A DNA stretch of 64,000 nt from Ignavibacteriales bacterium (GCA_037446575.1 JBBIII010000003.1:87430-151429), one strand, 5' to 3'; positions 25,920 to 53,028 are shown, numbered from the stretch's first letter. Made by a program: numbers and translations. The notes: generated from the letters alone by a model not told the origin.

Positions 25920-28310
25920 TTACCTCCAATTGATATTCTGCAAATTGCTTCCATAACTCTCATAAATCACCGCGCCTGATTTATCGGTTCTATGAATAAC
26001 AATTGAATTATTAAGCAACCTATCTAATACAGTTTTTGATGGATGATTAAATTTATTCCGCGTTCCTACTGATATTAGCGCAATTTTTGGCTTAACATAT
26101 CTAATAAACTCTTCACTTGTACTAGTCATACTTCCATGATGTCCAACTTTTAATATATTGCTGGATAGAAAATTTCCATATTTGGATATAAGTATATTTT
26201 CTACTTCAGTTTCTGCGTCGCCAGTGAATAATATTGAAGATTCACCATACAATACTTTTAATACAATTGTGTTATTATTTTGGTTTCTATCTGCTTTGAA
26301 GTAAGCGCTTGGATGCAAGACATATACACGCGAATTAGGATCAACATAAATTTGACTTTTCGATTCCACATGCTTAACTCCGATTTTGTATTTAATTGCT
26401 TCTTGCAATAAAGTTGTAAGTTGATGATTATTTATTTTATTCATTGCCACAATCAAAGTATCTACTTTAATTTTATTTATTATAGAACTTGCTCCGCCAA
26501 TATGATCGTTATGGGGGTGAGTTATTAGTAGATAATCTAATTTATCAACTCCTTTATTTTTTAGTAATGGTATAATTGTTCTTATACCAGCATCATATAT
26601 TTTTGATTTCGCTCCTGCATCTATCAATATCCTTTTTCCGTTAGAAAATTCTGTAAGAATTGCATCGCCCTGCCCCACATCAATCATTGTTAGAGAAAAA
26701 TTAGGACGATTCGGATATATTATCGATGAGTAGACAAAGAAATTTCCAATTAATAAGCATATAAATAAAATAATTTTACGCGTTCTATGTTTATTAATAT
26801 TGATAATCAAACCAATTATTAAAAAATAGCAGATACAAGAGATGAAGTTGAAATTACTGAATTCTAAGTAAGCATATGGAACGTTTGCGGCTTGTTTGAC
26901 AAAACCAAGAAGAAGCCACACAAGAAAATCGTTCACTGCCGCATATAAACTTGCAATCCAATCATTTATAAAAGAAAAAATAATTTCAGTAAAACCTAAA
27001 AAGGTATTAAAACCTGCAATTGGCACAGCTAAGATATTTGCAACAAGCGAAATAATTGATATACGGCCAAAATAATAGGCAGTAAAGGGAATTGTTCCTA
27101 AAAGAGCGGCAAGAGAAACAGCCATGAGCTTTAACACAAAATCTATTGCCTTAATTTCTTCGAACATAGTCGGAATTTTATTGATAAGTGCCTCAAACCG
27201 CGGATACAAAAATACAATAGCTATTACAGCCGAAAAAGAAAGTTGAAATCCAATATCAAACAAAAAGTTTGTATCCCAAATCAATAATATTAGAGCTGCT
27301 ACGCTTATTGAATTGTAAATATCAGGTTTTCGTTCATACAAGGTCGCGCACAAAATAACAATTGCCATAATTGTCGCGCGTACAACTGAAGGGCTTGACC
27401 CTGTTACTAGCATGTAGAATATTAACCCAATAATTGTTGCCAACGCTATATATTTTCGAGGCAGACGAAAAAATCCAAAAACCGTATAAAACATAAAAGC
27501 TACAAACGCCACGTTGGAACCCGATACTGCTAAAATATGGATTGTTCCAGTATCTATAAAGGATTGTTTAATATCTACAGGAATTTCGGCTCGATAGCCA
27601 AATATTATTCCTTTTAAAAAACTTGCATGACGTTGTGTATGAAACTTATCTATTATTGCATATAATTTTTGTTGAATAGAATATGTCCAATGTCGAAAAT
27701 TATTTTTATGCATCGATTCAACAGCAATGATTTTATCGAAGCTCTTGATATTAACAATGCCTTGTATATTATTCAATTCGAGGTATTTTCCAAAATCATA
27801 CTCGCCGGGATTTCTCTTAAATGGATAGGCCTCAAGTATTCCTTCCAAAAATATTCGTTTTCCAAATTCAACATTTGCACAATTATGAGCGTCGCTTATG
27901 TTACGCAGTGTTATTAAAATTCGTTGACCTCTGCGGTCAATTTTAAATTCTCTTTTTATACTATCGGTTTTTACTACAAAAGAAAATCTTCTCTCTTGCT
28001 TTATTGGTTCTGAATCAACAATTCCATAAATGAGAATATTTTCATTTTGCACGCTCGGTTCAAGTTTAGAGGATTCATAATCGAGTTGGTTAATTGAGTG
28101 GAGTAATAATCCTAGTAATAAAACTAATAGATGTAAAAATATTGAAAAGATAATATGCCATTTATAAATAAGTGTGAGTATAATGATTGGAACAACAAAT
28201 ATTAGAATAGAAAAATAAATCCACAAAGGATTTATAAATAGCCAATATGCACAAATAATTCCGACAATATAAAGGACAAGAAAACGCAGTGCAGGTCGGC
28301 GTGTTAACAT
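25920..28310 (-). CDS. comEC: DNA internalization competence protein ComEC/Rec2
   Basis: 796 aa polytopic membrane protein with a C-terminal MBL domain (LLITHPHNDHIGG). Confidence 0.85.
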   Translation of the reverse strand: MLTRRPALRFLVLYIVGIICAYWLFINPLWIYFSILIFVVPIIILTLIYKWHIIFSIFLHLLVLLLGLLLHSINQLDYESSKLEPSVQNENILIYGIVDSEPIKQERRFSFVVKTDSIKREFKIDRRGQRILITLRNISDAHNCANVEFGKRIFLEGILEAYPFKRNPGEYDFGKYLELNNIQGIVNIKSFDKIIAVESMHKNNFRHWTYSIQQKLYAIIDKFHTQRHASFLKGIIFGYRAEIPVDIKQSFIDTGTIHILAVSGSNVAFVAFMFYTVFGFFRLPRKYIALATIIGLIFYMLVTGSSPSVVRATIMAIVILCATLYERKPDIYNSISVAALILLIWDTNFLFDIGFQLSFSAVIAIVFLYPRFEALINKIPTMFEEIKAIDFVLKLMAVSLAALLGTIPFTAYYFGRISIISLVANILAVPIAGFNTFLGFTEIIFSFINDWIASLYAAVNDFLVWLLLGFVKQAANVPYAYLEFSNFNFISCICYFLIIGLIININKHRTRKIILFICLLIGNFFVYSSIIYPNRPNFSLTMIDVGQGDAILTEFSNGKRILIDAGAKSKIYDAGIRTIIPLLKNKGVDKLDYLLITHPHNDHIGGASSIINKIKVDTLIVAMNKINNHQLTTLLQEAIKYKIGVKHVESKSQIYVDPNSRVYVLHPSAYFKADRNQNNNTIVLKVLYGESSILFTGDAETEVENILISKYGNFLSSNILKVGHHGSMTSTSEEFIRYVKPKIALISVGTRNKFNHPSKTVLDRLLNNSIVIHRTDKSGAVIYESYGSNLQNINWR

Positions 28311-47696: not shown

Positions 47697-48743
47697 CTAT
47701 TCATACCAATCGAGTATTCTATAAAAACTAAGATTTGGTACTCTACGCGCTTTTTGTATAGCGGCGCTACTATATTTGATATCTGCTTCACCATTTATTT
47801 TCACATCTACAGTATTATTTATATTTCCAGCTATTATAAGTCCCCCAATAATATTAGCTTGCCCCGTTGTTTGAAAATCTAATTTTGTATCAACACCATA
47901 TACTATTACTAGTCCACGCCAATCGAATTGTCCTGTAAACTTTACTGTGCCTCCGCCATAAATTACTAATATGCCATAACCTGTAACTTTTGGCATATTT
48001 ACTCCATACGTTGTGTCACCCATAGGATTACAAGTAACAATAGTCGGTTCAGTTGCAGTACCAAATGTAATGTTATTAGGGGGTTGATTATTTTTATCGT
48101 AAGAAAATGAAGCCGCTTTTATATATTCATTTAGATAATCTTGAGGATCTTCTTGATTCGGATTTATTTTAATTATAGGATTACCCTCGATTCCGCTTAG
48201 ACTATTTCTTTGATTAGCAATTTTTATTGAATCATTAGTATTCTTGACTGTAAAGCCGGGGACATCGCCGCTGCCGACCCGTGTAGAACCATCTTCTGTA
48301 TAATTACGCCCATCAACTTTTAGTTTTTTATTGCCCGGTTGAAAATCTCCAATATTTGTATTAATTCCCACTGCTCCTGCCGCTTCTGGTATTGGTCTTG
48401 GCGTCCACAATAATTTTACGTTCATCGTATAAGTAGTATCCTGATATCTACCCCTTGAAATAATAGTTAACGTGTCAGCCACGCTTGATGTATCAACGCG
48501 GTAACTTCCATCGTTAAAATTGCATACTAATGCATTGTAACTAGGATTGCGTACAATACCATCACTTGCAATAAATCTGAGTACTCTATTTATACCCATT
48601 CGTGCAAGATTTCTTGCGTTAGAATATTGAAAATAAGTTGAATGTGTTTCTACCAACAAATTAGAATATGTATGTATGCTATTGCCTATATAACCGAATG
48701 CAACAGCCAAAGCTAAAACAAGCAACAACGCTGAACGTCCCAT
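47697..48743 (-). CDS. pseudopilin-like protein, PilX/GspK-like (cassette B, gene 3)
   Basis: 348 aa. MG|RSALLLVLALAVAFGYIG signal-anchor, then the helix YSNARNLARMGINRVL (compare PilX/GspK A-x3-A-x-G-L). Gly-rich beta repeats and a terminal FYRILDWYE. Paralog of 50346..51632. Confidence 0.4.
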   Translation of the reverse strand: MGRSALLLVLALAVAFGYIGNSIHTYSNLLVETHSTYFQYSNARNLARMGINRVLRFIASDGIVRNPSYNALVCNFNDGSYRVDTSSVADTLTIISRGRYQDTTYTMNVKLLWTPRPIPEAAGAVGINTNIGDFQPGNKKLKVDGRNYTEDGSTRVGSGDVPGFTVKNTNDSIKIANQRNSLSGIEGNPIIKINPNQEDPQDYLNEYIKAASFSYDKNNQPPNNITFGTATEPTIVTCNPMGDTTYGVNMPKVTGYGILVIYGGGTVKFTGQFDWRGLVIVYGVDTKLDFQTTGQANIIGGLIIAGNINNTVDVKINGEADIKYSSAAIQKARRVPNLSFYRILDWYE

Positions 48744-48754
48744 AATAATACCTT

Positions 48755-49345
48755 TTAATTAGTACGCCATAAATTTCGTGGAATTAATAATTTTTGCCAA
48801 CCGATTGCAGAATACGTCGTGTCAATTAATGAAATTACCGGCTCTGGCCCCATAGTGCTAAATCTTACAAAAACAGACCTTATTTTATCTAATGAATCGT
48901 CAGGCGTCAGTATCTCTGCATTATTAATGTTATAATATTGCATTCTAAAGGATGTTAATCCGTAATTTAATCTTTGTGGAGGGTCATTATCATATCTTCT
49001 ATAAATTGGAAAATCATTTGGATTCGGAGTATTAACAGATTCTATTGCTCTACCGATATAGTATCTCACTACGGGAGTATCTATTTTATTGTTATTAATA
49101 TACCCTACTCTAAATCGGATACTATCCTTGTCAGCAAAGAAAATCGTTTGCCCACGCACTCTATAGCCCATTTTCAAAAAATCATTTTCGATCTGTCGAG
49201 CGAGTTCCACTGCATTGCGCTGAGTTATTACTGTGTAAGTATTCTGGTATTGTGTACTGCTCATTGTAACATGCACGCGTGCAATTGTTAATGCAAGAAT
49301 CCCAAAAATAATTCCTGCCATGATATAATCAAAAATTACATTCAT
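48755..49345 (-). CDS. pseudopilin-like protein, PilW/GspJ-like (cassette B, gene 2)
   Basis: 196 aa. Hydrophobic N-terminus VIFDYIMAGIIFGILALTIA, then ELARQIENDFLKMGYRVRG (compare PilW ENGRFAL..L...L.kAGYR). YYIG and YGLTSFR motifs are shared with 51656..52285. Confidence 0.45.
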   Translation of the reverse strand: MNVIFDYIMAGIIFGILALTIARVHVTMSSTQYQNTYTVITQRNAVELARQIENDFLKMGYRVRGQTIFFADKDSIRFRVGYINNNKIDTPVVRYYIGRAIESVNTPNPNDFPIYRRYDNDPPQRLNYGLTSFRMQYYNINNAEILTPDDSLDKIRSVFVRFSTMGPEPVISLIDTTYSAIGWQKLLIPRNLWRTN

Positions 49346-49353
49346 ACTAATCT

Positions 49354-49956
49354 CTAATAATATCTTCTATAGATAGCAATATCTGACAATTTATAGATTA
49401 TTATCTCTCCTTGTAAATTTTTTGGCAAGCTGGGATTTTCGATGTGAACATCTATCCTTTTTTGAAAAGTTCGCGATGCAGATGTAGTATTCGGGTTTTC
49501 TTCTGCAATATAGGTAATTGTACATGAGACTTTAAACCATTCTAGTCGATCATCCCAAACCCATCGTTTGTACCACCTGTGGTAGTCATCAACATCATCG
49601 AATTTACGTTGAGATTGGAAAATATAAACGCGAGATGAGTCAATTATGCCATTAGCTCCGCTAATTCCTGTAATTGTTTCATTTACACCATCCGCACCAA
49701 AAAATTGGGATAGCGTCATCCCGGACGCATTCATTACTCGTCTTGTAGTGCCATCTGGAAGCGGCGTAACATTTTCGTCAAAATATCTATTGATTATTTC
49801 ATCCAACAGCGCTTGTCCGATAGAAAGGGCATTTAGGTTGGCTTCCATCTCCAATCCCGTAGTCGCTGTGCCTATCATTGTTGCGTTAATTGCTAACGTA
49901 ACTGTAGCAAGAAGCGCAAATGCCGCAATTACAAGCATTGTTTGACCAGTATTCAT
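49354..49956 (-). CDS. pseudopilin-like protein, PilV/GspI-like (cassette B, gene 1)
   Basis: 200 aa. MNTG|QTMLVIAAFALLATVTLAINA N-terminus. Acidic FDDVDDY block. C-terminal ASRTFQKRIDV shared with 52289..52810. Confidence 0.35.
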   Translation of the reverse strand: MNTGQTMLVIAAFALLATVTLAINATMIGTATTGLEMEANLNALSIGQALLDEIINRYFDENVTPLPDGTTRRVMNASGMTLSQFFGADGVNETITGISGANGIIDSSRVYIFQSQRKFDDVDDYHRWYKRWVWDDRLEWFKVSCTITYIAEENPNTTSASRTFQKRIDVHIENPSLPKNLQGEIIIYKLSDIAIYRRYY

Positions 49957-50345
49957 ATATTTTCTTTATGCCTAAATTCTATATACTAGTGTAAAAATAT
50001 TCAAAATAATAAACTCGCAACAATCAAACTTTTTATATTACACTAAAACATTGAGGAATTGCATAAATCATTCCACAAATATATTTGAATATTAAACTTG
50101 ATTAAACTTGATTTTCCTTATTTTATAATTAGTACACTAGAAAATTCTACAAAACTCGGAGTGTCAGTTGCTTCTGAAATATTAAACAATGGAAACCACA
50201 GATTTTAGCTCTCGGCTAAAAATTAAAACATCATCCGTGGTATGTGTCTGCGGATATTTATCCGATTTTTAAGAAGTCTCTTTTAGCTGATTTCGTGAGT
50301 TCCTTAACCACCTCAGTTTATATACTGGTTTATTTTTTTAAATTT

Positions 50346-51632
50346 TTACCTATAGTCTTCCCAAACGTCAGCATATTTTGAAGTAATGCGACTATACCAA
50401 GAAAGGATTCTAAATCTTTCTCTTTGTGGATAACCGGGCGGGAAATCATTTGCCATTCTGTTATCAAACCTATAGTTCTTATGGAATCCATCCGAAATAG
50501 TACCACCAGATATTACACCTACTGGCTCCCTATTTCTTTGCTGGATACCGCCTAATATAGTTAATTGACCGCAATATCCTCTTGTACTATAATCTACAGC
50601 CTTTACACCACCGTTACGACACATGATTGTGGCATGGATAGTAACGCCTCTTGAAGCAACTCTATTATTTGAATTATTTGATATGAACACATTATTTTCA
50701 GCTACAATGCCTAACATATCTGTACTTAACGGATTAACAAGTGGATTGCTGTTATATACAACTGATGAGTCAATATATACATTTCCTTTTGCAAGTCCCG
50801 AACTGCCGGTTGCACATATAGTCATTCTACCAGATACTGTTCCTTTTATATAAAGATTGCCATTTTGTACATGCAAAATACCGTTAGTGGCAAAATTTGA
50901 TATTGAAGTAAATATTGTCGGTGTACCGCCCCAACTTCCCTGGCGCACAACTACATTTCCATTAGCTAAAAATTGTAAGTAAATGTCTGTGTTAGAATAT
51001 ACTCTTCCGGCGCTTGATGCTGCCGTTGTAAGAGGATTGATGTTAGCGGGCAGACTTATATCGACTCCTTCTCGGTAAGTATCAAAAAATTGTGGGTGAT
51101 AATTACTACCGCCATTATTTTGTAATCCATTTCTTGATGTTACCCTTCCCATAAAAACTGGTGAGCCAATTATGCTTATCCTTTGCTGTGTATGCAGTGG
51201 TCCCCAACAAGTGTCGCCTGTTGTCCAATTAATATTATTTTCAATTTCGCTGTAAAATGCATACTCTGAAAATCTTCCAATTGTTAGGACTACAGTAGTA
51301 GATTCTTTTGCCGCTCCATAAATACCTTGAGTACGAATGGTAACTCTTCTTGCTGAATTAACTATCGTTCGGGCAAGACTCCATTCCAAAGAGCCAGTTT
51401 CTCCGCTGTTATCAATTGATATGCTATTAGTAGTTGGCGTCCAGCCAGTATCTATTGATATCATACCAACCGCATAATTAAGACCGCTCGCTGTAACGTT
51501 ACGAGCTCTTTGATACTCTAAATATTTTACATAATTTCTAAATGATTGATTTGTTATTTTGTTAAGGTTTATTCCCAAAAAAACAAAAATAAAATTGAAC
51601 CCTATTACCATTAACAAAGTATTCTTACCCAT
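50346..51632 (-). CDS. pseudopilin-like protein, PilX/GspK-like (cassette A, gene 3)
   Basis: 428 aa. MG|KNTLLMVIGFNFIFVFLG anchor, then the helix YQRARNVTASGLNYAVGMI. Gly-repeat beta-rich C-domain (GNLYIKG, GNVYIDSS, GQLTILGGI) and terminal FRILSWY. Strong AAGGAG Shine-Dalgarno. Confidence 0.4.
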   Translation of the reverse strand: MGKNTLLMVIGFNFIFVFLGINLNKITNQSFRNYVKYLEYQRARNVTASGLNYAVGMISIDTGWTPTTNSISIDNSGETGSLEWSLARTIVNSARRVTIRTQGIYGAAKESTTVVLTIGRFSEYAFYSEIENNINWTTGDTCWGPLHTQQRISIIGSPVFMGRVTSRNGLQNNGGSNYHPQFFDTYREGVDISLPANINPLTTAASSAGRVYSNTDIYLQFLANGNVVVRQGSWGGTPTIFTSISNFATNGILHVQNGNLYIKGTVSGRMTICATGSSGLAKGNVYIDSSVVYNSNPLVNPLSTDMLGIVAENNVFISNNSNNRVASRGVTIHATIMCRNGGVKAVDYSTRGYCGQLTILGGIQQRNREPVGVISGGTISDGFHKNYRFDNRMANDFPPGYPQRERFRILSWYSRITSKYADVWEDYR

Positions 51633-51655: not shown

Positions 51656-52285
51656 TTAACTATTTTGCATCATTTTAGATACAAGGCGCATTTGTCTCCA
51701 ATATACTTTATAATGCGTCGTATCATCCATGAAATCTTGATGAGGAACTGGATTTTCTAAACTAACTGATAATTGAATAATATGTATTCCACCAGGATTT
51801 GGAACTGGAAATTGTCTAATTTCTCTTTCAGTGGCATTAAAATATTTAAATCTAAATTCAGTCAGTCCTAAATAGATTCTTATAGGTAAGCCGGTATTAA
51901 TTTGCCTGTAGAGATACCGATCTCGTGGATTTGGTGTGCTCAACAATTCTGATGTTGGACCAATATAATAAGTAATTGTATCCATTTTCCCATCGCTTCT
52001 ACCATGCTGATCGACAATATCTGTTCGAAAACTAATTCTTCCCGTGTCAGCAAATACTATAGCTTCTCTTAGATTCACATTATTCGCATTAGAAGAATAT
52101 CCTATTCGCGAAAAATCATCTTCTATTATGTTAACGAGAGCCGTTAAGTTAGTTTGCAGATTGAAGCTTGAATAGTAAGCGGTATATCTTTCCATCGAAC
52201 TTTGATTGAGTCTCAAAGCCATCAAGAAAATTAACCCGCCAACAACAAAAGATCCTATTATATCAATTAATGATGAAGTGCCCAT
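51656..52285 (-). CDS. pseudopilin-like protein, PilW/GspJ-like (cassette A, gene 2)
   Basis: 209 aa. MG|TSSLIDIIGSFVVGGLIFLMAL (LIDII resembles LIELM of pilins). Then IEDDFSRIGYSS, YYIGPTSELLSTPNPRDRYLYRQ and LGLTEFRFKYFN. Confidence 0.45.
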   Translation of the reverse strand: MGTSSLIDIIGSFVVGGLIFLMALRLNQSSMERYTAYYSSFNLQTNLTALVNIIEDDFSRIGYSSNANNVNLREAIVFADTGRISFRTDIVDQHGRSDGKMDTITYYIGPTSELLSTPNPRDRYLYRQINTGLPIRIYLGLTEFRFKYFNATEREIRQFPVPNPGGIHIIQLSVSLENPVPHQDFMDDTTHYKVYWRQMRLVSKMMQNS

Positions 52286-52288
52286 AAT

Positions 52289-52810
52289 TTATGGCCTAAA
52301 ATAACTACATATATAAGATATTTTAATTGTATCGCCGCCTGCAAAACCTACATTAGGATCTCCCCTCATCGATCCGGTTGTGAAAACGTCAATTTTTTTA
52401 AAAAATGTTCTTGCCGTGCTTCTAATATTTGGATCTGCAGTGGTTACATAATAAACATTTGCAAATGTTCTGAAAACATCCACGCCAACTACGCTATCTC
52501 TCGCAATTGAGCCATTGAAGTCATCGAAATCATCAAATGTCGAATCAACATGAGCAATTTCTCCGGCATCTACACCAAGCACAGAGGATAAATCGTTAAC
52601 AGTAGTGGCTCCAGAAGTTGTTAGAATTTCATCAAATAATTTTGCCGCCGCTAATTCAATTCGCGATGAGGCAACTGATACAGCAGCAATACCGATTTCA
52701 GTTTGTCGTAATATAGCACCATAATGTATATGACTTCGATTTACCGTAAGCACAGTTGTACCAAGTAGCGCAAGCGCTCCGGTAACAAGAAGCATTTGTC
52801 CCGTATTCAT
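52289..52810 (-). CDS. pseudopilin-like protein, PilV/GspI-like (cassette A, gene 1)
   Basis: 173 aa. MNTG|QMLLVTGALALLGTTVLTVN. A-rich helix. FDDFDDF block. C-terminal STARTFFKKIDV. Confidence 0.35.
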   Translation of the reverse strand: MNTGQMLLVTGALALLGTTVLTVNRSHIHYGAILRQTEIGIAAVSVASSRIELAAAKLFDEILTTSGATTVNDLSSVLGVDAGEIAHVDSTFDDFDDFNGSIARDSVVGVDVFRTFANVYYVTTADPNIRSTARTFFKKIDVFTTGSMRGDPNVGFAGGDTIKISYICSYFRP

Positions 52811-53028
52811 TTATTTTTTTTCCTTTATTACAACACTTTCCGCCACAATATAAAAGGGATATGCACTTATGGTAAAATAATAACATGATAGATTAAAATT
52901 GTCAAGGAAATTTTTCACCTAAGCAAATATCTTATTTTTTTTATCCAACTAATAGCTTTAAGAATTAAGGTTTCATAAGATAAGTACTATGTATATAGGA
53001 TTTTTCCTATTACCTTACCGAAAATATT

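What the first reader, a model, noticed from the sequence alone, without database searches (positions are those of the whole stretch)
47697..51632. Large C-terminal beta-rich Gly-repeat domains and shared terminal RIL-x-WY motif on the two X/K-like members
The 428 and 348 aa proteins extend far beyond a pseudopilin core. They carry repeated G-N-(L/V)-Y-I-x-G and GQ-x2-I-x-GG(I/L)-I segments (GNLYIKGTVSG, GNVYIDSSVVY, GQLTILGGIQQ in one; YGGGTVKFTG, GQANIIGGLIIAGNIN in the other). These are reminiscent of beta-helix or beta-solenoid rungs. Both end with an aromatic motif (FRILSWY and FYRILDWYE). In T4aP systems the adhesive function is supplied by a separate PilY1. Here a tip adhesin-like domain may be fused to the X/K-like pseudopilin.
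Basis: seen in the sequence. Interest (0 to 1): 0.5.

Follow-up and report, generated by a model that had tools for sequence, protein, structure and literature searches.

The report
Pilus-tip proteins carrying beta-solenoid domains
The two large proteins are most likely the cap subunits of type IV pili in an Ignavibacteria genome, each a small pilin core with a rigid beta-helix built into it; this design is already known from Thermus ComZ and cyanobacterial PilX, so it is a new example rather than a new kind of protein.

Summary
Two minus-strand ORFs (428 aa, 50346-51632; 348 aa, 47697-48743) carry the quoted Gly-rich segments. Both have a C-terminal motif that is strongly conserved: 136 of 176 family members end exactly in W-x-E. 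The sequence "repeats" are not statistically significant. AlphaFold models (pLDDT 90 and 85) nevertheless place them on strands of a beta-rich domain.

Each protein closes a conserved three-gene cassette (about 165, 200 and 400 aa). The cassette occurs 1-4 times per locus across Ignavibacteria. In 16 genomes it lies inside a PilC-PilB-cassette-PilT-PilQ cluster. No PilY1-sized gene follows it.

Verdict: a new member of a known kind, of moderate interest. One side lead remains open. All pilin-like proteins of this system, including a candidate major pilin starting MGQQQLLL, have leaders of only 1-3 residues, and no prepilin peptidase gene was seen nearby.

The parts
52877..52905 (-). Candidate sigma-70-type promoter (TTGACA-17-TATTAT with a TG extension) upstream of cassette 1
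   Evidence: It matches 11 of 12 positions, but promoter-like sites in the region are no more frequent than in shuffles, so this is only a candidate.
52289..52810 (-). A1, 173 aa. First gene of cassette 1. N-terminus MNTGQMLLV followed by a hydrophobic helix. Inferred PilV/GspI-position minor pilin.
   Evidence: Paralog of A2 (28% identity, E 1e-15). The family of 88 sequences has consensus N-terminus MNTGQ[TM]LL. The fold was not predicted; the role is inferred from gene position and N-terminus.
51656..52285 (-). B1, 209 aa. Second gene of cassette 1. PilW/PpdB/GspJ-like minor pilin with N-terminus MG-x-S-x-[IL]-[IL]-D and an invariant Asp8.
   Evidence: hhalign aligns Asp8 with Glu5 of E. 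coli PpdB (probability 40%, E 2.9e-4) and of GspJ. Precomputed Pfam PpdB (weak) hits exist on two orthologs.
50346..51632 (-). C1, 428 aa. PilX/ComZ-like cap pilin of cassette 1. This is one of the two proteins in the finding.
51453..51629 (-). C1 residues 2-60: N-terminal hydrophobic/amphipathic alpha-1 helix (MGKNTLLMVIGF...)
   Evidence: DSSP on the model. Homologous to the C2 N-terminus.
51273..51425 (-). C1 residues 70-120: long antiparallel strands of the pilin-type sheet
   Evidence: strands 80-91, 94-105 and 108-120. hhalign of the C1 and C2 families gives probability 99% over residues 2-200.
50469..51257 (-). C1 residues 126-388: beta-solenoid domain with the ice-binding-protein (IBP-1) fold. 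It contains the conserved TGDTxWGPxHT stretch and the GN[LV]YI and GQxxIxGGIQQ strands.
50385..50426 (-). C1 residues 403-416: last long strand carrying RILSWY, inferred to return to the pilin sheet. It is followed by a low-confidence 12-residue tail ending VWEDYR.
   Evidence: The insertion point is inferred by analogy with ComZ and cyanobacterial PilX.
49957..50345 (-). 390-nt gap between the cassettes. It holds a marginal sigma-54-like -24/-12 element (TGGAATGATTTATGCA) and a 9/12 sigma-70-like site at 50004-49976. No minus-strand terminator was detected.
   Evidence: The sigma-54 score of 8/11 is not above controls.
49354..49956 (-). A2, 200 aa. First gene of cassette 2 (MNTGQTMLV...).
48755..49345 (-). 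B2, 196 aa. Second gene of cassette 2. Paralog of B1 (30% identity, E 2e-21). It starts MNVIFD without the MG seen in most of the family.
47697..48743 (-). C2, 348 aa. PilX-family cap pilin of cassette 2. This is the second protein in the finding.
48561..48740 (-). C2 residues 2-61: N-terminal alpha-1 helix
48399..48533 (-). C2 residues 71-115: pilin-type antiparallel sheet
   Evidence: About 90 residues align to GspK and to S. sanguinis PilA.
47772..48371 (-). C2 residues 125-324: beta-solenoid domain, including the family-wide G-x-G-I-L-[IV] and Y-S-S motifs
47703..47729 (-). C2 residues 339-347: terminal strand YRILDWY. Glu348 is the C-terminus.

Best explanation
C1 (428 aa) and C2 (348 aa) are the cap (PilX/GspK-position) subunits of two paralogous three-gene minor-pilin sets, A-B-C, of an Ignavibacteria type IVa pilus.

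Architecture. Each is a bimodular pilin. An N-terminal hydrophobic helix of about 60 residues and a small antiparallel sheet form a GspK-like pilin core. A rigid triangular beta-solenoid with the ice-binding-protein fold is inserted before the last strand. The conserved C-terminal strand ([IV]-x-[SD]-W-x-E-COOH) returns to complete the pilin sheet.

Assembly (inferred). The A (PilV/GspI-position), B (PilW/GspJ-like) and C subunits would assemble through their N-terminal helices into a priming or tip complex on the PilC platform. The major pilin then polymerises beneath it.

Function (inferred). C lacks the Glu5-equivalent residue, so it caps the filament and presents its solenoid at the distal tip. 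The solenoid would act as plug and ligand-binding module, the job done by a separate PilY1 in proteobacteria. Two cassettes with very different solenoids imply two differently tipped pili, or alternative tips on one machine. One could bind DNA as ComZ does, and the other a surface or polysaccharide.

What is shown: the predicted fold, homology to the PilX family, cassette conservation, and linkage to the pilus machinery in related genomes.
What is inferred: the tip location, the trimer, the return of the last strand to the pilin sheet, and the ligand.
For: Fold.
- The models are confident: pLDDT 89.7 and 85.2.
- Foldseek with C2 finds only ComZ chains (E 4e-6, probability 1.0).

Homology.
- The C1 and C2 family profiles align with 99% probability over the first roughly 200 residues.
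- The C2 profile hits 4366 representatives at 50% identity (E <= 1e-3).
- The more distant full-length hits (E 1e-32 to 1e-41) have canonical leaders. Seven of the ten tested hit PilX_N at E <= 2e-5; six of these clear Pfam's 25.5-bit cutoff and one scores 25.0 bits, just below it.
- Source databases name these proteins PilX.

Context.
- The A-B-C cassette is conserved in essentially all of the 78 genome loci recovered through C1 homologs (all Ignavibacteria), at 1-4 copies per locus.
- In 16 loci it lies between PilC-PilB and PilT, with a PilQ-type secretin nearby. PilT scores 325.7 bits on TIGR01420, above the 319.1 cutoff.
- Canonical homologs sit in PilW-N_methyl-PilX operons, one of them next to PilMNOPQ.

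B subunit.
- It has an invariant Asp that aligns to pilin Glu5.
- Two orthologs carry weak PpdB Pfam hits.

PilY1 substitution.
- Only 1 of about 98 cassettes has a same-strand downstream gene of 700 aa or more.
- In Desulfovulcanus the short PilX is followed by PilY1, while the solenoid-bearing PilX is not.

Literature.
- ComZ is described as a GspK-like pilin with a solenoid inserted between the penultimate and last strands, and as a tip-located DNA receptor (PMC6561018).
- Cyanobacterial PilX proteins have the same architecture, and two minor-pilin sets prime two different pili (bioRxiv 10.64898/2026.02.12.705559).
Against: - None of A, B or C has a canonical class III signal peptide. The leaders are only M-G or M-N-T-G, and the Asp in B is one residue out of register if cleavage follows Gly2.
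- No pilus machinery gene was found among the window ORFs that were examined, and no MGQQQ-type pilin gene anywhere in the window. Many window ORFs were not domain-scanned. The link rests on related genomes.
- The window proteins themselves get no Pfam or NCBIfam pilin hit. C1 scores only 23 bits on DUF4900, below the 29.4 cutoff.
- Neither C-family profile (C1 family, C2 family) finds ComZ or any other PDB chain by sequence (E > 10).
- The folds of A and B were not predicted, and the A family has no detectable link to GspI, PpdC or PpdA.
- The ligand is unknown. The C1 solenoid is basic (pI 9.1) and the C2 solenoid acidic (pI 5.0), which is only a weak hint.
Confidence: 0.78

Rival explanations
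1. The cassettes encode the tip of a type II secretion pseudopilus (a GspI-J-K analogue) rather than a type IV pilus. The solenoid would act as a periplasmic piston head or substrate-contact surface.
Against: The linked clusters contain a PilT/PilU-family retraction ATPase above its curated cutoff. They also contain tandem arrays of a small pilin-like gene, and their best ATPase and secretin matches lean towards PilB and PilQ. The distant homologs are PilX_N proteins next to PilMNOPQ. A tip of 200-260 residues multiplied 1-4 times per locus fits surface adhesins better than a periplasmic piston.
Confidence: 0.08
2. At least one of the two proteins is specifically a ComZ-type DNA receptor at the tip of a competence pilus. 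This is a functional sub-hypothesis of the main explanation.
Against: There is no detectable sequence similarity to ComZ, so the DNA-binding lysines cannot be mapped. ComEC is 20 kb away and not co-located with the cassettes. Up to four cassettes per locus, together with the tapirin-like and adhesin-like fold matches, suggest diverse ligands. Natural competence has not been shown here for Ignavibacteria.
Confidence: 0.2
3. The proteins are membrane-anchored or secreted beta-helix proteins unrelated to pili, for example ice-binding proteins, adhesins or polysaccharide lyases. The N-terminal helix would be only a signal anchor.
Against: There is full-length profile homology to PilX_N proteins in PilW-pilin-PilX operons. 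The two partner genes are strictly conserved. The cassette is embedded in PilC-PilB...PilT-PilQ clusters in 16 genomes. The GspK-like core and ComZ-like overall architecture also argue against it.
Confidence: 0.04

Closest known systems
ComZ of Thermus thermophilus (PDB 6QVI; Salleh et al. 2019, PMC6561018)
   Different: There is no detectable sequence similarity (profile against PDB, E > 10). ComZ is larger, with about 380 solenoid residues against about 260 in C1 and 200 in C2. ComZ follows three canonical pilins (PilA1-3), whereas here only two non-canonical partners precede C. DNA binding is shown for ComZ and untested here.
Cyanobacterial PilX homologs (PilX-Com and PilX-EPS; bioRxiv 10.64898/2026.02.12.705559)
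   Same: [quoted passage not shown] Two or more paralogous minor-pilin sets per genome. The solenoid is proposed to replace the PilY1 plug.
   Different: The cyanobacterial sets have four members (FimT-PilW-PilV-PilX) with canonical prepilin signals. The Ignavibacteria cassettes have three members with leaders of 1-3 residues. Direct homology between the two was not tested here.
PilX_N-domain 'pilus assembly PilX family' proteins of about 370-395 aa (for example Desulfovulcanus ferrireducens WP_252379605.1)
   Same: Full-length sequence homologs of C2 (E 1e-32 to 1e-41 in a library of 1.8 billion proteins). They share the G-x-G-I-L-[IV], Y-S-S and W-x-E motifs. They sit last in a PilW-pilin-PilX operon that has no PilY1.
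   Different: They have 10-25-residue leaders ending in Gly and pass or nearly pass Pfam PilX_N. Their C-terminus runs 2-4 residues beyond W-x-E. Their partner genes carry N_methyl and PilW domains.
GspK/XcpX (type II secretion) and the short PilX of proteobacterial type IVa pili
   Different: GspK carries an alpha-helical insert between strands 3 and 4. Short PilX proteins have no large insert and rely on a separate PilY1.
IBP-1 (DUF3494) ice-binding proteins and Caldicellulosiruptor tapirins
   Different: These are stand-alone secreted proteins without a pilin core. There is no sequence similarity. Ice binding is not implied, as the ComZ authors also concluded.

Membership tests
Type IV pilin / pseudopilin (class III signal peptide) | A short positively charged leader ending in Gly(-1), then a hydrophobic +1 residue and Glu at +5; cleaved by prepilin peptidase | tested here: not met
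   The C family starts M-G-[KR]-x-[SA]-L. The A family starts M-N-T-G-Q. The B family starts M-G-[FTSM]-S-T-[IL]-[LIF]-D. The longest possible ORFs start there. A Gly is retained, but the leader is only 1-3 residues. Only B has an acidic residue, at +6 if cleavage follows Gly2.
Type IV pilin / pseudopilin (fold) | An N-terminal alpha-1 helix of about 50 residues packed on an antiparallel beta-sheet | tested here: met
PilX family (Pfam PilX_N, PF14341) | A match to the PilX_N model at or above the gathering score | tested here: not met
   C1 and C2 give no PilX_N hit even at E <= 1.
PilX family (Pfam PilX_N, PF14341) | Homology to bona fide PilX_N proteins, and a position as last gene of a PilW/PilV-type minor-pilin operon | tested here: met
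   The C2 family profile hits full-length proteins, of which 7 of 10 match PilX_N (6 above the cutoff). Source databases name these proteins PilX. Their operons read PilW-N_methyl-PilX. C is the last gene of the A-B-C cassette.
ComZ-like bimodular tip pilin | A beta-solenoid inserted into a GspK-like pilin fold between the penultimate and last strands | tested here: inconclusive
ComZ-like bimodular tip pilin | DNA binding and high-affinity binding to the adjacent minor pilin (PilA2) | not testable with these tools
   This needs biochemistry or multimer modelling.
DUF4900 (PF16241) | A match at or above the gathering score of 29.4 bits | tested here: not met
   The window's C1 scores 23 bits (E 1e-4) at residues 113-167. 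Many orthologs carry the precomputed hit, so the C1 family overlaps DUF4900. C2 has no hit.
IBP-1 / DUF3494 ice-binding proteins | The DUF3494 sequence signature, a stand-alone secreted beta-helix with a flanking helix, and ice-binding activity | tested here: not met
Type IVa pilus system (machinery association) | Co-occurrence with PilB, PilC, PilT, PilM/N/O and PilQ | tested here: met
   Sixteen related loci have the order pilin array - PilC - PilB - A-B-C - PilT - ... - secretin. This is not met inside the window itself: none of the window ORFs examined is a machinery gene.

The most novel reading that the evidence does not exclude
The cassettes belong to an undescribed variant of the type IVa pilus that is common in Ignavibacteria. 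In this variant every pilin-like subunit has a vestigial leader of one to three residues and Gln or Lys/Arg after the Gly. This applies to a tandemly repeated candidate major pilin with the invariant N-terminus MGQQQLLLI, and to the A (MNTGQ), B (MG-x-STILD) and C (MG[KR]) minor pilins. Only B keeps an acidic residue.

The filament might then be assembled without a classical PilD prepilin peptidase, or with an unusual one. The 1-4 interchangeable A-B-C cassettes would give it alternative solenoid tips.

This would also explain why the M. roseus genome paper reported pilB, pilC, pilT and pilQ but could not find pilA or pilD.
Probability: 0.3. Interest if true: 0.65.

Novelty: new member of a known kind. 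Interest (0 to 1): 0.4.

Why it matters
Annotation. About 100 'hypothetical' Ignavibacteria protein clusters, and their two partner families, get a probable role as type IV pilus priming or tip complexes. The solenoid-bearing PilX/ComZ design is thereby extended to another phylum.

Support for a current proposal. The results fit the idea that a built-in beta-solenoid replaces PilY1 as the tip plug or adhesin in many non-proteobacterial pili. The Desulfovulcanus locus is a useful comparison: a short PilX followed by PilY1 lies next to a solenoid-bearing PilX with no PilY1.

Alternative tips. Multiple cassettes with divergent solenoids suggest a simple genetic way to fit one machine with alternative tips. 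Cultured Melioribacter and Ignavibacterium strains could be used to test this.

Motif. The sharply conserved W-x-E C-terminus is a handy sequence signature for finding such proteins.

Processing. The near-leaderless pilins raise a testable question about whether prepilin processing is needed at all.

Tried and rejected
Searches that found nothing.
- Pfam and NCBIfam on all six window proteins gave nothing significant.
- Profile searches of the C1, C2 and B families against PDB sequences found nothing. The A family gave only a chance hit at E 5.4.
- Pfam on 45 B-family members found no pilin family. PF27121 (PpdB) appears to be missing from the copy of Pfam that was searched.
- hhalign of the A family against E. 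coli PpdA, PpdC and GspI, and of the C2 family against YgdB and GspK, gave no signal.
- hhalign of the candidate major pilin against the A, B and C families showed only the N-terminal helix.

Claims tested and rejected or left marginal.
- Sequence-level internal repeats in the solenoids are not significant, so the 'Gly-repeat' description is rejected at the sequence level.
- A sigma-54 promoter is enriched upstream of some cassettes: 12 of 88 score 9 or more, against 4 of 440 shuffles. The window's only candidate is marginal, so it is not claimed.

Technical failures.
- The afdb50 fold library was not available.
- The first genome scan with the wide alignment failed for lack of conserved stretches.
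- The exact look-up of C1 in the contig index found nothing.

Literature.
- The single DUF4900 paper is irrelevant.
- The I. album genome paper does not mention pili.

Readings considered and rejected.
- An ice-binding function: this is a fold resemblance only.
- An outer-membrane beta-signal reading of the C-terminal motif: the terminal residue is Glu, not an aromatic residue.


Full report
**Anatomy**

The finding's span (47697-51632, minus strand) is the distal part of a six-gene block. The block consists of two paralogous three-gene cassettes:

| Cassette | A | B | C |
|---|---|---|---|
| 1 | 52810-52289, 173 aa | 52285-51656, 209 aa | 51632-50346, 428 aa |
| 2 | 49956-49354, 200 aa | 49345-48755, 196 aa | 48743-47697, 348 aa |

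- A 390-nt gap separates the two cassettes. Genes within a cassette overlap or lie at most 23 nt apart, so each cassette is probably an operon.
- A1 and A2 share 28% identity (E 1e-15). B1 and B2 share 30% identity (E 2e-21).
- By BLAST, C1 and C2 align only over the first 60 residues and the last 13. Their family profiles, however, align with 99% probability over about 200 residues.
- The flanking genes are housekeeping: GatA, SucD, Ndk and a NUDIX protein upstream, and a DHH-family protein downstream. None of the window ORFs examined is a pilus-machinery gene, and the window has no MGQQQ-type pilin gene.

**Checking the observation**

- Every quoted peptide is at the stated place.
- The terminal motif is real. 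W412 of C1 is at least 90% conserved in 57 homologs, and W346 of C2 is invariant in 25 homologs.
- Of 176 unique family proteins, 136 end exactly in W-x-E. The consensus is G-x-[YF]-E-[IV]-[VLI]-[SD]-W-[YFLW]-E-COOH.
- About a dozen others add one residue. Most of the rest, including the window's C1, carry a 10-20-residue tail, and several of these tails end again in [FI]-W-E.
- The 'Gly repeats' are not significant sequence repeats. The observed self-alignment score was reached by 14 of 60 shuffles for C1 and 4 of 60 for C2. They are better described as strands of a predicted solenoid.

**Predicted structure**

- AlphaFold2 with family alignments gave confident models: C1 pLDDT 89.7 and pTM 0.80; C2 pLDDT 85.2 and pTM 0.76.
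- Both models show the same order of elements. A helix spans residues 2-60. Three or four long antiparallel strands follow at about residues 70-120. Then come many short strands, and finally one long terminal strand that carries the motif (C1 403-416, C2 339-347).
- Foldseek with C2 finds only the three ComZ chains as significant hits (E 4e-6 to 1e-5).
- This is the description published for ComZ: a GspK-like pilin domain with an FfIBP-like triangular solenoid inserted between the penultimate and last strands, argued to sit at the pilus tip (PMC6561018). A 2026 preprint reports the same design for all cyanobacterial PilX homologs. It proposes that the solenoid replaces the PilY1 plug, and that two minor-pilin sets prime two distinct pili.
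- I could not inspect coordinates. The return of the last strand to the pilin sheet is therefore inferred from strand lengths, the order of elements and these precedents.

**Sequence relatives**

- Word-indexed searches found 88 C1 homologs and 25 C2 homologs. All that carry a source name come from Ignavibacteria, Ignavibacteriales, Melioribacteraceae or Bacteroidota/Bacteroidetes MAGs, and all of those are labelled 'hypothetical'.
- An exhaustive HMMER search with the C2 profile found 4366 representatives at E <= 1e-3, and 166 at E <= 1e-30.
- Most close hits begin MG[KR...] and end W[YW]E.
- The more distant full-length hits (E 1e-32 to 1e-41) have canonical leaders, such as ...NEQG|MVLLTSL, and end [ST]-W-[RKEQ]-E plus 2-4 residues.
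- Seven of ten of these hit Pfam PilX_N, six above the cutoff. Source databases call them 'pilus assembly PilX family protein' or 'Tfp pilus assembly protein PilX'.
- The alignment shows family-wide invariant positions: G-x-G-I-L-[IV], Y-S-S, and the Trp of W-x-E.
- C2, and through it C1, is therefore a divergent member of the PilX family, even though the window proteins themselves miss every Pfam and NCBIfam model.

**Genomic context elsewhere**

- A scan of one genome per species returned 78 loci, nearly all labelled as Ignavibacteria, Melioribacteraceae or unclassified Bacteroidota MAGs. Three are labelled Chitinophagaceae.
- The A-B-C order (about 165, 200 and 400 aa) holds in essentially all of them. 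There are one to four cassettes per locus. C2-like or third-type C proteins usually sit in a second cassette.
- In 16 loci the cassette is embedded in a type IVa pilus cluster. The cluster contains:
  - 1-5 tandem copies of a 125-137-aa protein with the invariant N-terminus MGQQQLLLI;
  - PilC (T2SSF);
  - PilB (TIGR02538, 438 bits);
  - the A-B-C cassette;
  - PilT (TIGR01420, 325.7 bits, above its 319.1 cutoff);
  - two unannotated genes;
  - in some of these loci, a PilQ-type secretin.
- The canonical relatives of C2 are the last gene of PilW-N_methyl-PilX operons. In one case the operon lies just upstream of PilM-N-O-P-Q.
- The Desulfovulcanus locus is especially informative. One set reads PilW - small gene - short PilX (195 aa) - PilY1 (1182 aa). 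The neighbouring set reads PilW - N_methyl - long PilX (380 aa, the C2 homolog), with no PilY1.
- In Ignavibacteria only 1 of about 98 cassettes has a downstream same-strand gene of 700 aa or more.

**The partner proteins**

- B has an invariant Asp in M-G-x-S-T-I-L-D. hhalign aligns this Asp with Glu5 of E. coli PpdB (probability 40%) and of GspJ. Two orthologs carry weak precomputed PpdB hits.
- A has no detectable link to any known family. It is assigned the PilV/GspI position only by gene order, size and N-terminus.
- There is no FimU/GspH-like fourth member in the cassette.

**Mechanism**

The best-supported reading is that A, B and C form the priming or tip complex of a type IVa pilus. 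C would be the cap subunit, and its solenoid the distal plug and ligand-binding module. The two window cassettes would then give two alternative tips.

The ligand is unknown. DNA (as for ComZ) and polysaccharide or surface binding (as for tapirins; M. roseus adheres to cellulose) are both open. The C1 solenoid is basic and the C2 solenoid acidic.

**What is unusual**

- None of the pilin-like proteins has a normal class III signal. The longest possible ORFs start at MG or MNTG.
- No homolog of the E. coli prepilin peptidase GspO was found in 162 loci, about 2.2 Mb in total. This is not a whole-genome test.
- A Gln at +1 has precedents in EppA-processed archaeal pilins and in Gram-positive Flp pilins.
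- Whether these subunits are processed at all remains open. This is the most novel reading left.

**Verdict**

The architecture is already known from ComZ and cyanobacterial PilX, and the family is large. This is therefore a new member of a known kind, in a phylum where it has so far been annotated only as 'hypothetical'. Interest is moderate.

Noticed in passing
L031:6161-8568, L048:2779-5008, L063:7651-8534 and 13 further loci; none in the window: A candidate non-canonical major pilin family of Ignavibacteria, 125-137 aa, with the invariant N-terminus MGQQQLLLI followed by a hydrophobic helix. It occurs in tandem arrays of 1-5 copies next to PilC-PilB. It has no Pfam or NCBIfam hit. A metagenome scan confirmed at least 454 stretches; among the 80 loci kept, PilC was adjacent in 36 and PilB/PilT in 29.
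   Followed up: partly
All 162 related loci (L001-L083 and L088-L167): No homolog of the E. coli prepilin peptidase GspO was found anywhere near the pilin or machinery clusters. [quoted passage not shown] Together with the 1-3-residue leaders, this raises the possibility of unusual or absent prepilin processing.
   Followed up: partly
L170:1-9143 (Desulfovulcanus ferrireducens): Two adjacent minor-pilin sets. One has a short PilX_N protein (195 aa) followed by PilY1 (1182 aa). The other has a long, solenoid-bearing PilX_N protein (380 aa, homolog of C2) with no PilY1. This is a natural side-by-side contrast that supports the idea that the solenoid replaces PilY1.
   Followed up: no
Upstream of A genes in L004, L012, L016, L033, L035, L048 and others; window about 50060-50075 (-): Sigma-54-type -24/-12 elements (for example TGGCACGAAGATTGCA-like) lie upstream of 12 of 88 cassettes, against 4 of 440 shuffles. 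Sigma-54 activator genes neighbour the cassettes in L002 and L087. The window's cassette 2 has only a marginal match, TGGAATGATTTATGCA.
   Followed up: partly
window 50091-50110 (-): A tandem duplication of the 10-mer CAAGTTTAAT lies in the 390-nt gap between C1 and A2. Its significance is unknown.
   Followed up: no
window 25920-28310 (-): A ComEC competence channel gene (Competence, DUF4131 and metallo-beta-lactamase domains) lies about 20 kb from the cassettes. It shows that DNA-uptake hardware is present in the genome, but it is not linked to the cassettes.
   Followed up: no
C1 residues 136-149 (window about 51186-51227) and C2 residues about 143-163 (window about 48255-48317): These are the most conserved stretches of each solenoid. 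In the C1 family the stretch is W-x-T-G-D-T-x-W-G-P-x-H-T, with G139, D140, T141, G144 and H147 invariant or nearly so. In the C2 family it is V-D-G-R-N-Y-D...G-S-G-D-x-P-G. They could be metal- or ligand-binding sites at the base of the solenoid.
   Followed up: no
C-termini of the A and B families (for example window 52289-52310 and 51656-51700): The partner proteins also end in conserved Trp-containing motifs: the A family in ...S-Y-W-x-F-R and the B family in ...F-W-R-Q-I-R-L-x-x-R-N-L-x-N-R. All three subunits may therefore use a conserved aromatic last strand.
   Followed up: no
P0271, P0272 and P0274 (proteins of 544-908 aa): Some members of the C2 superfamily carry long extra C-terminal or inserted regions after the first roughly 300 residues. 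P0271 and P0274 still end in YYE or WWE. The tip module appears to be extensible.
   Followed up: no
L169:909-5369: Other PilX_N-type proteins in the same locus as a C2 homolog carry Pfam DUF7305 (PF23981) and pAdhesive_15. DUF7305 may be a Pfam model for a related tip domain. C1 and C2 do not hit it.
   Followed up: no
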